Source of the DNA: a virus
Taxonomy: Duplodnaviria; Heunggongvirae; Uroviricota; Caudoviricetes
Virus record (IMG/VR): IMGVR_UViG_2675903352_000008
Strand: one strand, 5' to 3'
DNA length: 6,420 nucleotides
Part shown: positions 1,353-6,311 of the stretch, in pieces
Layout: every line of letters begins with the position of its first letter
How positions within the stretch are numbered: position 1 is the stretch's first letter
Made by a program: the position numbers and the translations under genes
Notes under the pieces: model-generated
What the model saw: the letters and a program-made list of their open reading frames with translations, nothing else
Database searches by the model: none
Told to the model about the DNA's origin: nothing

Positions 1353-1428
1353 GGCCCTTTAGCTCAGTGGTGAGAGCGAGCGACTCATAATCGCCAGGTC
1401 GCTGGTTCAAATCCAGCAAGGGCCACCA
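1353..1428 (+). tRNA. tRNA with anticodon CAU, ileX/ileZ-like (tRNA-Ile2 lysidine type, or Met)
   Basis: 76-nt cloverleaf: acceptor GGCCCTT/AAGGGCC, D-loop with GG, anticodon loop CTCATAA, T-loop TTCAAAT, encoded CCA. Strong similarity to E. coli ileX as recalled. Confidence 0.85.
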
Positions 1429-1429
1429 A

Positions 1430-1506
1430 CCGCCACTAGCTCATCAGGAAAGAGCGTCAACCCTTTAAGTTGAGTGTGCGAGGTTCGAGTCCCCGGTGGC
1501 GGTCCA
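1430..1506 (+). tRNA. tRNA-like gene with atypical anticodon loop CCTTTAA (formal anticodon UUU, C at position 33)
   Basis: Perfect 7-bp acceptor stem CCGCCAC/GTGGCGG, D-arm GCTC/GAGC with GG in loop, anticodon stem TCAAC/GTTGA, T-arm CGAGG-TTCGAGT-CCCCG, discriminator T, encoded CCA. Only the anticodon loop is non-canonical. Confidence 0.6.
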
Positions 1507-1508
1507 GT

Positions 1509-1584
<76 letters not shown>

Positions 1585-1587
1585 TAT

Positions 1588-1662
<75 letters not shown>

Positions 1663-1825: not shown

Positions 1826-2389
1826 TTAGTTTTTATTCGCCGTCCATTTACCACAAATTGGTCTGGAGAAGATTGCCAGAATGGCAATAAAGGATATTTC
1901 AATTGAAACAGACCAGCATATATGTCCAATCAGTTCGCTCCAGAATTCATAGCCGTTTAGATTCCATAGCCACCCTCTTTCATGGCCGGGAAGATACGCG
2001 GGAAATCTGAAGCCCAGTGCGGGTATTAAAATACCATGCATGACTAATGTAATAAGAATTCCATATACAGCCCCATACCACATGCGGACTCGTGGAATAA
2101 AAACAGACAGGTATATGTATACAAAGGCAAAAATGAAACTAAAAAGCCAATGATAGAGCATAACAGCTCCGGGAATTGTTACTCCCTGGTAAATGTAATC
2201 CAGCGAGTGTGAATTTATTCCCAGAAAACCCAACCAGGCGTCGATATTCATTGCTGGTGGAGAAATTTCTCCGGCCATTCTTGGGGGCATGTTAGCTTCA
2301 GTTCCTGATTTCACCAGAGAGCTGATCGCGCCACCGACCAGTGTTGCCCAAAGTATGATTTTTAGATTTACACTATTCCATTTACACAT
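1826..2389 (-). CDS. Inner-membrane protein moron, about 4 TM helices, possibly DUF1440/YagU-like
   Basis: 187-aa ORF from ATG 2389..2387 with a strong SD (AGAGG, 6-nt spacing) to TAA at 1826-1828. Four hydrophobic segments. Motifs (VKSGTEANMPPR, SELIGHICWSVSIE) resemble my recollection of YagU/DUF1440, but this is unverified. Transcribed opposite to the late operon. Confidence 0.7.
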   Translation of the reverse strand: MCKWNSVNLKIILWATLVGGAISSLVKSGTEANMPPRMAGEISPPAMNIDAWLGFLGINSHSLDYIYQGVTIPGAVMLYHWLFSFIFAFVYIYLSVFIPRVRMWYGAVYGILITLVMHGILIPALGFRFPAYLPGHERGWLWNLNGYEFWSELIGHICWSVSIEISFIAILAIFSRPICGKWTANKN

Positions 2390-2672
2390 AAACAACCTCT
2401 TGTTTGTTGGGTTGGGGTTATCATACATGACTGCTTGTTGCGATTTTGTATTGTAATGTTTCTGTTTATTGTCTTTTGTGTTGTTTGTCTCTTTAGTGTT
2501 CAGTGTGTGACTATGTACACTCTGTATAGTGGGGGCTCCCGTTGGTGCAGAGAATAACGAAATCTGAAAATAACCGTTTTCAGTTGTGGCGCTCGCAACA
2601 AAAGCGCATGCTGACTGTGCGAAGATAATCTCGCTGTGACGAGTAATCTCGAACGTCATTGTTTTCATTTAT

Positions 2673-3043: not shown

Positions 3044-3065
3044 CGGGCCGCTGGTGGCTTTTTTT
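3044..3065 (+). terminator. G/C-rich element followed by a T7 run immediately upstream of the holin RBS (weak terminator-like)
   Basis: GC-rich GGGGGGGCGGGCCGCTGGTGGC followed by TTTTTTT (3059-3065). Only a short stem can be drawn, so assignment is tentative. Confidence 0.3.
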
Positions 3066-3104
3066 GTTTCCATTACACAGCACCCGCATCAGCGAGGTGG
3101 GGTT

Positions 3105-3320
3105 ATGAAATCCATGGATAAGTTAACAACGGGTGTCGCCTATGGCACCTCAGCAGGTAGTGCCGGGTACTGGTTTTTACAGTTGCTCGATAAAGTCACG
3201 CCCTCACAGTGGGCGGCAATAGGTGTGCTGGGTAGTCTGATATTTGGCTTGCTGACGTATCTGACAAACCTTTATTTCAAGATTAAAGAAGATAAGCGTA
3301 AGGCTGCGAGAGGTGAATAA
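3105..3320 (+). CDS. S: Phage-21-type pinholin/antiholin (S21-like), 71 aa, dual-start motif MKSM
   Basis: SD GAGGTGG upstream of ATG 3105; second in-frame ATG at 3114 gives the Met4 (68-aa) form. Sequence [26 protein letters not shown]...[16 protein letters not shown] closely matches S21 as recalled. The track start at 3054 lacks an RBS. Stop TAA overlaps the R start (TAATG). Confidence 0.9.
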
Positions 3321-3817
3321 TGTCGCCATCATTACGCAAGGCTGTTGCTGCTGCTATTGGTGGTGGGGCTGTTGCCATAGCGTCTGTGCTCATCACTGGT
3401 CCGAGTGGTGACGATGGTCTGGAAGGTGTCAGCTACATACCATACAAAGATATCGTTGGCGTATGGACTGTATGTCACGGACACACCGGAAAAGACATCA
3501 TTCCCGGTAAAACGTATACCGAAGCAGAATGCAAAGCCCTCCTGAATAAAGACCTTGCCACGGTCGCCAGACAAATTAACCCGTACATCAAAGTCGATAT
3601 ACCGGAAACAACGCGCGGCGCTCTTTACTCGTTCGTTTACAACGTGGGTGCTGGTAATTTCAGAACATCGACGCTTCTTCGCAAAATAAACCAGGGCGAT
3701 ATCAAAGGCGCATGTGATCAGCTACGGCGCTGGACATACGCTGGCGGTAAGCAATGGAAAGGACTGATGACTCGCCGTGAGATTGAGCGTGAAGTCTGTT
3801 TATGGGGGCAACAATGA
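3320..3817 (+). CDS. R: SAR (signal-anchor-release) endolysin, T4-lysozyme-type muramidase (R21-like)
   Basis: 165 aa. N-terminal Gly/Ala-rich weakly hydrophobic segment [18 protein letters not shown] typical of a SAR domain, followed by an E-(8)-D-(5)-T catalytic arrangement ([18 protein letters not shown]). Matches R21 as recalled. Start overlaps the S stop. Confidence 0.9.
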
Positions 3818-4281
3818 GCAGAGTTACCGCGATTATCTCCACACTGGTTATCTGCATCATCGTCTGCCTGTCGTTGGCGGTCAATCATTACCGTGATAAT
3901 GCCATCGCCTACAAAGAACAGCGTGATAAAAAAGTCAGTGAGCTGAAGCAGGCGATCGCCACCATCGCTGACATGCAGCAGCGTCAGCGTGATGTTGCTG
4001 CGCTAGATGCAAAGTACTTGAGAGAATTAGCCAATGCGAAAGCTGAAAATGAAACTCTGCGCGCTGATGTTGCCGCTGGTCGTAAGCGCCTGCGGGTCAA
4101 TGCCAGTTGCTCCGCAGCCGTGCGTGAGGCCACCGGCCCCACCCGCGTGGATAATGCAACCAGCCCCCGACTGGCAGACACCGCTGAGCGGGATTATTTC
4201 ACCCTCAGAGAACGGCTGATGACAATGCAAAAGCAACTGGAAGGGGCACAGGAATATATCCGTACCCAGTGTATACCGTGA
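3814..4281 (+). CDS. Rz: Rz i-spanin (inner-membrane spanin subunit)
   Basis: ATG 3814 overlaps the R stop (ATGA) with a G-rich SD upstream. N-terminal TM segment [18 protein letters not shown], then charged coiled-coil-like periplasmic region. The track start at 3802 is an alternative in-frame ATG. Confidence 0.85.
4034..4219 (+). CDS. Rz1: Rz1 o-spanin (outer-membrane lipoprotein), fully nested in Rz in the +1 frame
   Basis: 61 aa: signal peptide with lipobox LVVSAC, proline-rich mature domain ([16 protein letters not shown]), nested inside Rz; the hallmark Rz/Rz1 arrangement. Confidence 0.75.
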
Positions 4282-4746: not shown

Positions 4747-5061
4747 ATGCTACATGATCACCTGGCTGAATGTCTGGAGAAAAAAGGACTGTACCGGAGA
4801 GCGGCTGAACGATGGGCAAAAGTGATGGTACAGCTAAGTGATGATCAGAAAAGAAAAATCGCGGCACAGAAACGAGCAGAGTGTTTGCGTAAGGCGCGCC
4901 GGACTTCGGTTGCACCGGTGAATCTGACAGAAATAAAGCAAGCGGTCAACAGACTACATTCTGAGTTGGGAATGGGATTTGAAGAGCGGCGGATATTCCG
5001 ACGATATAAAGGGACAGGAGAACAGAATACGTCCGGAAACGCGCGGTCAAAAAAATGCTAA
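4747..5061 (+). CDS. PerC/Pch-family small transcriptional regulator (prophage moron)
   Basis: 104 aa. SD GGAGG (4736-4740) 6 nt before the ATG. N-terminal motif LEKKGLYRRAAERWAKVM resembles the PerC-family signature as recalled; basic C-terminus. Preceded by about 460 bp of AT-rich DNA. Confidence 0.55.
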   Translation: MLHDHLAECLEKKGLYRRAAERWAKVMVQLSDDQKRKIAAQKRAECLRKARRTSVAPVNLTEIKQAVNRLHSELGMGFEERRIFRRYKGTGEQNTSGNARSKKC

Positions 5062-5125: not shown

Positions 5126-5564
5126 TGTCATATATACGTCGTTTAAGTAAACCTGTCTGAACAGGTGCTCTGGTCGTGTTTGTTTTTGTTGGGTACAAAT
5201 TGAGAATGTTTTTCATTAATTAGTCTTCTTCAGCAGACTTCAATAATCCACGCTGAAAAAATTCCTGAACCTTTCTGACCAAAAGCGATGTTAATTTGTT
5301 CAATCATCTGGTTTGGAAATCGGATGTTGAGGGCTGTTGTTCTGCGGGTTCTGTTCTTTGATGACATAATGTTGCCCCATATTCAGTGTTGCTGGTTTGT
5401 ATTTTCTGAAGTTGCTTTTACGTTAATTTGATGTGGATCAATTGATGCAATGCCTGCGTCATAATTGATCATTTCTTGTGGTTAGATTGCGTACACACAC
5501 GTTCTGATGAGTCATCATGCAGATGATAACTATTCTCATTTTTTGTGGGTCCTTTCCGGCGATC

Positions 5565-5760
5565 TGACAGGCTACGGGGCGGAAGGCGCGCGGATTTTCG
5601 CTATTTATGAAAATTTTCCGGTTTAAGGCGTTTCCGTTCTTCTTCTCCGTAACGTCATGTTTTTATTTAAAACCCCCCCTGAAAAGAAAGGAAACGACAG
5701 GTGCTGAAAACGGGCTTTTTGGCCTCTGTCGTTTCCTTTCTCTGTTTTTGTCCGTGGAAT
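5565..5760 (+). other. Lambda-type cos site: cosN (variant 12-mer at 5577-5588) plus cosB with Nu1/IHF-binding elements
   Basis: Near base-for-base match to the lambda genome ends as recalled (right end ...CCGGTGATCCGACAGGTTACG, left end GGGCGGCGACCTCGCGGGTTTTCGCTATTTATGAAAATTTTCCGG...). Here the cosN-equivalent reads GGGCGGAAGGCG. Inverted R-element pair GAAAGGAAACGACAG / CTGTCGTTTCCTTTC is conserved. Confidence 0.8.
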
Positions 5761-5765
5761 GAACA

Positions 5766-6311
5766 ATGGAAGTCAACAAAAAGCAGCTGGCTGACATTTT
5801 CGGTGCGAGTATCCGTACCATTCAGAACTGGCAGGAACAGGGAATGCCCGTTCTGCGAGGCGGTGGCAAGGGTAATGAGGTGCTTTATGACTCTGCCGCC
5901 GTCATAAAATGGTATGCCGAAAGGGATGCTGAAATTGAGAACGAAAAGCTGCGCCGGGAGGTTGAAGAACTGCGGCAGGCCAGCGAGACAGATCTCCTGC
6001 CAGGGACTATTGAGTACGAACGCCATCGACTTACGCGTGCGCAGGCCGATGCACAGGAGCTGAAAAATGCCAGAGACTCCGCTGAAGTGGTGGAAACCGC
6101 ATTCTGTACTTTCGTGCTGTCGCGGATCGCAGGTGAAATTGCCAGTATTCTCGACGGGATCCCCCTGTCGGTGCAGCGGCGTTTTCCGGAACTGGAAAAC
6201 CGACATGTTGATTTCCTGAAACGGGATATCATCAAAGCCATGAACAAAGCAGCCGCGCTGGATGAACTGATACCGGGGTTGCTGAGTGAATATATCGAAC
6301 AGTCAGGTTAA
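5766..6311 (+). CDS. nu1: Terminase small subunit Nu1 (lambda-type)
   Basis: 181 aa, nearly identical to lambda gpNu1 as recalled (MEVNKKQLADIFGASIRTIQNWQEQGMPVLRGGGKGNEVLYDSAAVIKWYAERD...), including the N-terminal winged-HTH region. Confidence 0.95.
   Translation: MEVNKKQLADIFGASIRTIQNWQEQGMPVLRGGGKGNEVLYDSAAVIKWYAERDAEIENEKLRREVEELRQASETDLLPGTIEYERHRLTRAQADAQELKNARDSAEVVETAFCTFVLSRIAGEIASILDGIPLSVQRRFPELENRHVDFLKRDIIKAMNKAAALDELIPGLLSEYIEQSG

What the first reader, a model, noticed from the sequence alone, without database searches (positions are those of the whole stretch)
5560..5765. Lambda-like cos with conserved cosB but a divergent cosN 12-mer
The region aligns almost base-for-base with the lambda genome ends as recalled, but the 12 bases at the cohesive-end position read GGGCGGAAGGCG instead of lambda's GGGCGGCGACCT; 5 of the last 6 positions differ. 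Flanking bases, the R-element inverted repeat and Nu1 are near-identical. Either this phage has different cohesive ends recognised by a near-lambda terminase, or cosN is damaged and the prophage cannot package itself while still lysing. Smaller differences include a C7 tract at 5675-5681 in the IHF-site region.
Basis: partly seen in the sequence, partly recalled or inferred. Interest (0 to 1): 0.55.

Follow-up and report, generated by a model that had tools for sequence, protein, structure and literature searches.

The report
Lambda-type cos, variant cohesive end
This is an ordinary lambda-type DNA-packaging site whose sticky-end sequence carries a naturally occurring, widespread variant in the half that lambda's cutting enzyme is already known not to read closely, so it is almost certainly functional and not a new kind of system.

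Summary
Window 5577-5588 reads GGGCGGAAGGCG where lambda (J02459) has GGGCGGCGACCT. [quoted passage not shown]

It is not damage. The same 12-mer occurs in 82 IMG/VR viral contigs, 31 metagenome contigs, roughly 190 of 5,426 complete E. coli genomes, an Escherichia sp. genome and two deposited phages. One of these, PhiR46_1, has a recorded propagation host. The allele sits in at least 38 flank contexts and with more than one TerS/cosB type. Intact gpA follows it in 43 of 46 testable loci. Identical gpA proteins sit beside both alleles, so no co-evolved nuclease exists.

Feiss and co-workers have already reported that bp 7-12 of cosN vary naturally (N15, phiD326, Gifsy-1), that right-half mutations are nearly silent, and that lambda terminase is not cosN-specific. 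I found about a dozen right-half alleles, including single-step neighbours of this one.

Verdict: a functional allele of a known polymorphism, with low interest. The cohesive ends themselves were not mapped.

The parts
5547..5553 (+). cosQ heptamer GGGTCCT (packaging termination signal)
   Evidence: Read directly. Identical in lambda, PhiR46_1, YDC107_1 and Stx1 phage and in all 20 Nu1-linked cos sites from GTDB genomes. PMC4669245 states that cosQ is highly conserved.
5575..5590 (+). cosN: 12-bp cohesive-end sequence plus the CG dinucleotide outside each nick. Inferred nicks: top strand between 5576/5577, bottom strand between 5588/5589.
   Evidence: Aligns without gaps to the lambda ends in J02459 and to the annotated 'cos site' of DE3. 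Nick positions are inferred by homology, not measured.
5577..5582 (+). [quoted passage not shown]
   Evidence: Invariant in 20 of 20 cos sites found through Nu1 homologues, a search that did not use cosN. Reported as under selection in PMC4669245.
5583..5588 (+). [quoted passage not shown]
   Evidence: The allele is found in 82 IMG/VR stretches, 31 metagenome contigs, about 190 complete E. coli genomes, and PhiR46_1 and YDC107_1.
5626..5641 (+). cosB R3 (TerS binding site; lambda bp 50-65)
   Evidence: Identical to lambda at the same distance from cosN. The R3 coordinates bp 50-65 come from PMC9026076. The core CGTTTCC repeat was detected.
5650..5667 (-). I1 region (IHF site between R3 and R2), with two substitutions relative to lambda (5654, 5656)
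   Evidence: Consensus scan. One candidate core (5650-5662) keeps 7/9 consensus positions, as in lambda. The overlapping one (5655-5667) drops from 8/9 to 7/9. Which is the true core was not established.
5685..5700 (-). cosB R2 (inverted relative to R3 and R1)
   Evidence: Inverted repeat with R1 and with R3. Identical to lambda.
5726..5741 (+). cosB R1
   Evidence: Direct repeat of the R3 core and inverted repeat of R2. Identical to lambda.
5766..6311 (+). Nu1 (TerS, small terminase subunit), 181 aa
   Evidence: Pfam PF07471 Phage_Nu1, E 3e-100. 178/181 identical to lambda Nu1, with no change in the N-terminal DNA-binding domain (domain limits from PMC9026076).
6286..6420 (+). 5' end of gene A (TerL, large terminase subunit/nuclease), running off the window
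   Evidence: The first 45 residues are identical to lambda gpA. In E. coli 377323_2f, whose cos is 100% identical over 5480-5780, the full gpA is 637/641 identical to lambda gpA.

Best explanation
This is a functional lambda-type cohesive end site (cosQ-cosN-cosB) carrying a natural allele, AAGGCG, of the variable right half of cosN. Inferred mechanism, by homology with lambda: Nu1 dimers bind R3/R2/R1 in cosB with IHF bending at I1. This anchors gpA over cosN. gpA then nicks the top strand between 5576/5577 and the bottom strand between 5588/5589. Virion DNA would therefore carry 12-nt 5' overhangs, GGGCGGAAGGCG on the left end and its complement CGCCTTCCGCCC on the right end. The enzyme depends on the left half (GGGCGG) and the CG pairs flanking each nick, all of which are intact here. 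The right half is tolerated because cosB-bound TerS positions TerL for the bottom-strand nick. Shown here: sequence conservation, allele distribution, and the lack of any gpA co-variation. Inferred: the nick positions and actual packaging.
For: (1) The allele is exact and widespread: 82 IMG/VR stretches, 31 metagenome contigs, about 190 of 5,426 complete E. coli genomes, Escherichia sp. E1V33, and phages PhiR46_1 and YDC107_1. (2) It occurs in at least 38 distinct flank contexts, and some flanks are identical on both sides to flanks carrying the lambda allele. It occurs with at least two TerS families that are under 70% identical, and in both integrating lambdoid prophages and an N15-like telomere phage. 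A packaging-dead allele would not be expected to spread like this. (3) Full-length gpA follows it in 43 of 46 loci with enough sequence, against 39 of 55 for the lambda allele. (4) gpA proteins 100% identical to each other sit beside both alleles, and no gpA residue segregates with allele. gpA beside the window-identical cos is 637/641 identical to lambda gpA. (5) In an allele-blind, Nu1-anchored sample the left half and the flanking CGs are invariant (20/20) while six right halves occur. IMG/VR adds more alleles, including single-step neighbours CAGGCG and AAGGCT. (6) Literature: bp 7-12 differences are 'common'; G2C lowers yield about 10-fold while the symmetric C11G has no effect; lambda terminase shows no cosN specificity between the lambda and N15 alleles; and 'maintenance of bp positions 7-12 is not' under selection (PMC4669245).
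Against: No virion ends were mapped. No viral or metagenome contig starts or ends at the predicted overhang. The published tolerance tests cover 1-3 changes in the right half, not 5 of 6, and position 7 = A is rare among the alleles I saw. PhiR46_1's status as a plaque-forming isolate rests on GenBank metadata (host ECOR13); its source paper is not held. This particular cos also has private substitutions: A at 5594, and 5654/5656 in the I1 region. Their effect is unknown, and the closest relative's integrase is frameshifted, so this individual prophage could be defective for reasons unrelated to cosN.
Confidence: 0.85

Rival explanations
1. cosN is damaged: the five substitutions abolish nicking, so the prophage can lyse the cell but cannot package its own DNA.
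For: Five of six right-half positions differ from lambda. This exceeds any natural variant named in the literature I could read, where the maximum is three (Gifsy-1). The closest relative has a frameshifted integrase, which hints at some decay in this lineage.
Against: The exact hexamer recurs in hundreds of independent genomes, in many flank contexts and with several TerS types. Intact gpA follows it in 43 of 46 loci. It occurs in a phage deposited with a propagation host. The substitutions avoid every position reported as selected: the left half, the flanking CGs and cosQ. Random decay would not hit only the tolerated half, and would not yield one conserved sequence.
Confidence: 0.05
2. A new cosN specificity: phages with this allele carry a gpA nuclease that has co-evolved to recognise the altered right half, forming a separate packaging-specificity group.
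For: Packaging specificity groups do exist among lambda-like phages (lambda, 21, N15), although they reside in TerS/cosB.
Against: gpA proteins identical over 641 residues flank both alleles. At 99% identity, one cluster holds 41 variant and 29 lambda-type loci, and no residue segregates with allele. Nu1 and R3/R2/R1 in the window are lambda's. Lambda terminase showed no cosN specificity in the lambda/N15 test.
Confidence: 0.03
3. The right-half hexamer is not neutral. It acts as an end-compatibility determinant: chromosomes cut from concatemers carrying two different alleles get mismatched ends that cyclise poorly, which partly isolates phage lineages.
For: A 2-of-12 mismatch already lowers the yield of infectious phage (PMC4669245, abstract). 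A lambda/AAGGCG pair would mismatch at 5 of 12. GC content is the same in both alleles (10 of 12), so annealing strength is kept. One contig carries both alleles 12.3 kb apart.
Against: Alleles are shuffled freely across flanks, TerS types and gpA sequences, so no isolation is visible. Single-step neighbours exist, as expected from drift. The published view is that bp 7-12 are not under selection.
Confidence: 0.07

Closest known systems
cos of bacteriophage lambda (J02459)
   Same: cosQ, the left half of cosN, the CG pairs flanking the nicks, the cosN-R3 spacing, and R3, R2 and R1 are the same. Nu1 is 178/181 identical, and the gpA N-terminus is identical.
   Different: [quoted passage not shown] There are scattered substitutions between R3 and R2, and the R2-R1 loop is 1 bp shorter.
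Natural right-half cosN variants: N15 and phiD326 (bp 9 and 12), Gifsy-1 (bp 8, 9, 11), mEp213/LLS (GGGCGGCGCGCT)
   Same: The changes are confined to bp 7-12, with the left half and nick-flanking CG conserved. The terminase is closely related to, or the same as, lambda's.
   Different: More positions are changed (5), including bp 7 (A), which is C in nearly every other allele I saw. This hexamer was not found in any searchable paper. It shares G at bp 12 with N15.
cos of Escherichia phage PhiR46_1 (PV340565.1) and YDC107_1 (CP025712.1)
   Same: Same 12-mer, and lambda-type cosB, Nu1 and A.
   Different: These are N15-like telomere phages (telL/telR, ParAB), not integrating lambdoid prophages. 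They have G rather than A at the position equivalent to 5594, and the lambda-like ACTTAATG in I1.

Membership tests
[quoted passage not shown] | cosQ heptamer GGGTCCT upstream of cosN at lambda spacing | tested here: met
   5547-5553, at the same distance from cosN as in lambda.
[quoted passage not shown] | cosN left half GGGCGG with a CG dinucleotide outside each nick position | tested here: met
   5575-5582 and 5589-5590. These positions are invariant in 20/20 Nu1-linked sites and are reported as conserved.
[quoted passage not shown] | Complex cosB: R3, IHF site I1, inverted R2, and R1, with R3 at bp 50-65 | tested here: met
   R3, R2 and R1 are identical to lambda at the same positions. The I1 consensus match is retained at 7/9, though the true core is uncertain.
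[quoted passage not shown] | Nu1-type TerS and gpA-type TerL encoded immediately downstream | tested here: met
   PF07471, E 3e-100. Nu1 is 178/181 identical and gpA 45/45 identical to lambda.
[quoted passage not shown] | Virion DNA actually carries 12-nt 5' overhangs generated at this site | not testable with these tools
   No contig in IMG/VR or the metagenome collection starts or ends at the site. This needs end-sequencing of virion DNA.
Documented natural polymorphism of the cosN right half (bp 7-12) | Differences from lambda confined to bp 7-12 of the cohesive end | tested here: met
   The differences are at bp 7, 8, 9, 10 and 12 only.
Documented natural polymorphism of the cosN right half (bp 7-12) | No matching change in the nuclease (terminase not cosN-specific) | tested here: met
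   Identical gpA is found beside both alleles and no residue segregates with allele. This agrees with the lambda/N15 experiment.
Documented natural polymorphism of the cosN right half (bp 7-12) | Allele supports normal phage yield | not tested
   Only indirect evidence is available: the allele's distribution, intact terminase genes, and a deposited phage with a propagation host.

The most novel reading that the evidence does not exclude
The right-half hexamers of cosN form a set of end-compatibility types. A lambda/AAGGCG pair mismatches at 5 of 12 bases, so chromosomes cut from mixed concatemers would fail to cyclise. The allele would then act as a weak reproductive barrier, or as an exclusion device against co-resident lambda-type prophages and cos-bearing satellites, and would not be a neutral variant.
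Probability: 0.07. Interest if true: 0.4.

Novelty: new member of a known kind. Interest (0 to 1): 0.12.

Why it matters
It matters little for biology in general. It adds one common allele, present in roughly 3-4% of complete E. coli genomes, to the known natural variation of the lambda cohesive end. It also extends the evidence that gpA does not read bp 7-12 from 2-3 substitutions to 5 of 6, with identical gpA beside both alleles. On the practical side, tools that locate lambda-type cos sites or genome ends by searching for GGGCGGCGACCT will miss these phages. A pattern such as CG-GGGCGG-NNNNNN-CG next to cosQ and cosB would find them. Phage DNA with these ends will not anneal to lambda-type ends.

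Tried and rejected
(1) Physical evidence for termini. I scanned IMG/VR without the ACG prefix and the metagenome collection for contigs starting or ending at the overhang and found none. The 19 extra IMG/VR hits were chance matches in unrelated GC-rich contigs.

(2) Literature search for the 12-mer. It gave only an unrelated plant paper.

(3) The source paper for the PhiR phages. It was not found by name or accession. The probable source, Brenes & Laub 2025 (cited in PMC13190303), is not held.

(4) Vahanian et al. 2017, the dedicated survey of cosN natural history. It is not held, so I could not check whether AAGGCG is listed there.

(5) Co-variation between gpA and the cosN allele. It was tested and rejected.

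(6) Whether conservation of C11 is a rule. It is not: alleles CAGCGG and CAGCGT have G at bp 11, in line with C11G being silent.

(7) Whether the I1 changes destroy the IHF site. This is inconclusive, because two overlapping consensus matches exist and only one loses a position.

(8) Sequencing error. It is excluded because the cos is identical in independent assemblies: L005, L030 and L058 match exactly from cosQ to the Nu1 start.

Full report
**Observation.** The window reads GGGCGGAAGGCG at 5577-5588, preceded by ...GGCTACG and followed by CGCGGATTTTCGC.... The window differs from lambda at 5583, 5584, 5585, 5586 and 5588, which are bp 7, 8, 9, 10 and 12 of the cohesive end; bp 11 (C) is kept. 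Between cosQ and the Nu1 start there are 19 differences from lambda in 219 bp. Five of them fall in this one hexamer (P about 1.6e-5 for a given hexamer, about 0.0035 after scanning correction). The features that are identical to lambda are:
- cosQ (5547-5553)
- the left half GGGCGG
- the CG pairs outside both nick positions
- R3 (5626-5641)
- the R2/R1 inverted repeat (5685-5700 / 5726-5741)

Nu1 (5766-6311; PF07471) differs at 3 of 181 residues, none of them in the N-terminal DNA-binding domain. The first 45 residues of gpA are identical.

**Context.** The window is a standard lambdoid late region:
- RusA (46-411)
- Q (402-1097)
- four tRNA genes (1353-1662)
- a DUF1440/YagU-family gene on the minus strand (1826-2668)
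- P21-type holin (3054-3320), lysozyme (3320-3817) and Rz (3802-4281)
- a PerC-family regulator (4747-5061)
- a DUF3950 ORF (5230-5367, minus strand)
- cos, then Nu1 and the start of A

The nearest complete genome, E. coli 377323_2f, matches the whole window at 98.7%, and its cos is 100% identical over 5480-5780. That prophage lies beside tRNA-Ser/mtfA. It has a full lambda-type head and tail gene set, but its integrase is frameshifted. Its gpA is 637/641 identical to lambda gpA, and all four differences are in the N-terminal part at residues 9, 21, 185 and 350.

**Is it damage or an allele?** The same 12-mer is present in Escherichia phages PhiR46_1 and YDC107_1, while DE3 (lambda) and an Stx1 phage carry the lambda 12-mer. 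A cos-specific 33-mer with the variant occurs in 31 metagenome contigs, mostly from human gut.

Among complete E. coli genomes, 2,575 records cover at least 80% of a variant 48-mer. Of these, 2,388 are lambda-type sites aligned through the five mismatches. That leaves about 190 carriers, against about 4,340 genomes with the lambda allele. This figure comes from subtraction and is approximate.

The allele sits in at least 38 distinct flank contexts. Some flanks are identical on both sides to flanks that carry the lambda allele. It occurs with at least two TerS families that are under 70% identical. PhiR46_1 is an N15-like telomere phage with lambda-type packaging, head and tail genes, so the allele is found in both integrating and linear-plasmid prophages. 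A full-length gpA ORF follows the allele in 43 of 46 loci with enough sequence, against 39 of 55 for the lambda allele. A conserved, widely shuffled sequence linked to intact terminase genes is not what decay would produce.

**Does the nuclease co-vary?** No. Among 93 gpA sequences (45 next to the variant, 48 next to lambda-type cosN), proteins 100% identical to each other flank both alleles. At 99% identity one cluster contains 41 variant and 29 lambda-type loci, and no residue segregates with allele. The same enzyme therefore serves both alleles.

**How the allele fits natural variation.** I sampled cos sites through Nu1 homologues in GTDB species representatives, a search that does not use cosN. 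In all 20 enterobacterial sites the left half GGGCGG and both flanking CGs were invariant. The right halves were CGACCT, AAGGCG, CAGCGT, CGTCCG (the N15 allele), CAGACT and CGGACT. An allele-blind IMG/VR scan gave CGACCT 69, AAGGCG 4, CAGCGG 2, CGTCCG 2, CGTCCT 2 and CAGACT 1 among the 80 listed loci, and further loci from that scan added AGACCG and CGACCG. Two targeted scans found single-step neighbours of the window's allele, CAGGCG in four contigs and AAGGCT in one, and also AAGCGT. AAGGCG therefore belongs to a connected network of right-half alleles. In terms of twofold symmetry, every allele keeps the CG just outside the nick, and most keep the second base inside it.

**Literature.** Feiss et al. 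2015 (PMC4669245) make these points:
- Among lambda-like phages, differences at bp 7-12 are common: N15 and phiD326 at 9 and 12, Gifsy-1 at 8, 9 and 11.
- Many right-half mutations have minimal effects, whereas symmetric left-half mutations are severe. G2C lowers yield about 10-fold; C11G has no effect.
- The asymmetry reflects the closeness of the right half to cosB, where TerS anchors TerL.
- The CG pairs flanking the nicks, and cosQ, are conserved.
- Lambda and N15-hybrid terminases give the same yields with either cosN.

A dedicated survey exists (Vahanian et al. 2017, Virology 509:140; cited), but it is not held here. Another right-half variant, GGGCGGCGCGCT, is reported for LLS/mEp213. 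The exact 12-mer of this window appears in no searchable paper.

**Mechanism (inferred by homology).** Nu1 dimers bind R3/R2/R1, with IHF bending the DNA at I1. gpA is thereby placed on cosN. It nicks the top strand between 5576/5577 and the bottom strand between 5588/5589, giving 12-nt 5' overhangs GGGCGGAAGGCG and CGCCTTCCGCCC. What this analysis shows is the conservation pattern, the allele's distribution and the absence of gpA co-variation. The nick positions and actual packaging are inferred.

**Caveats.**
- No termini were observed: no contig begins or ends at the overhang.
- Published tolerance data cover up to three right-half changes, not five.
- PhiR46_1's viability rests on record metadata (host ECOR13). 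I believe it comes from the temperate-phage panel of Brenes & Laub 2025 (cited), but I could not read that paper.
- This particular cos has private substitutions. They are A at 5594 and 5654/5656 in the I1 region, where one of two overlapping IHF-consensus matches loses a position. The identical cos occurs in three other assemblies (L005, L030, L058).

**Verdict.** It is an instance of a polymorphism already described and explained by the Feiss laboratory. It is at most a previously uncited, fairly common allele, so it counts as a new member of a known kind and is of low interest.

Noticed in passing
L094 4189/4711; L097 3794/4659; L109 2361/3226; L166 11274/12140; L175 427/1184; L186 6427/7293: Six IMG/VR loci carry two lambda-type cosN sites in inverted orientation, 520-870 bp apart. 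In L109 a 50-nt inverted repeat (88% complementary) spans cosN on both sides. It encloses about 800 bp holding one minus-strand gene downstream of the second cos. This could be a junction between a prophage and a cos-bearing island, or a rearrangement.
   Followed up: partly
L029 (IMGVR_UViG_2623620496_000002), 223 and 12488, both minus strand: One contig carries a lambda-type cosN and an AAGGCG cosN 12.3 kb apart in the same orientation. Packaging between them would give a chromosome with ends mismatched at 5 of 12 bases.
   Followed up: no
L305 (PV340565.1, PhiR46_1), whole record: PhiR46_1 is an N15-like telomere phage (telL/telR sites, ParA/ParB, large primase). Its packaging, head and tail genes are lambda-type rather than N15-type, including a complex lambda cosB and Nu1.
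   Followed up: partly
window 1353-1662: There is a cluster of four tRNA genes just downstream of Q: CAT, TTT (Lys), TGT (Thr) and TCC (Gly) anticodons. ARAGORN calls the CAT tRNA Met, but it is annotated tRNA-Ile in the RefSeq relative.
   Followed up: no
window 1826-2668 (minus strand) and 4747-5061: Two cargo-like genes sit in the late region. One is a DUF1440/YagU-family membrane protein between the tRNAs and the holin; its ORF here is 280 aa, but it is annotated as a 564-bp gene in the relative. The other is a PerC-family transcriptional activator between Rz and cos.
   Followed up: no
L214-L222, L227-L229, L233, L240, L242, L245, L246, L250-L253, L255, L256, L259, L263, L265 (GTDB genomes): Many non-enteric genomes (Kitasatospora, Paenibacillus, Bradyrhizobium, Shewanella and others) hold Nu1 at about 96-100% identity on contigs that are mostly short or low-coverage, two of them about 48.5 kb long. 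This looks like lambda DNA contamination of the assemblies.
   Followed up: no
window 5713 (between R2 and R1): The R2-R1 loop is 1 bp shorter than in J02459 (GCGAGGCTTTTT becomes ACG-GGCTTTTT). The DE3 record shows the same length as the window, so this loop length varies among lambda-type cos sites.
   Followed up: no
L306 1722 and L318 3611 (IMG/VR metagenome contigs): Two GC-rich, non-enteric viral contigs contain TTCG|GGGCGGAAGGCG|CGCGGG, with CG on both sides and a hairpin just downstream. This is probably chance, but the flanking CG pairs resemble a cosN.
   Followed up: no
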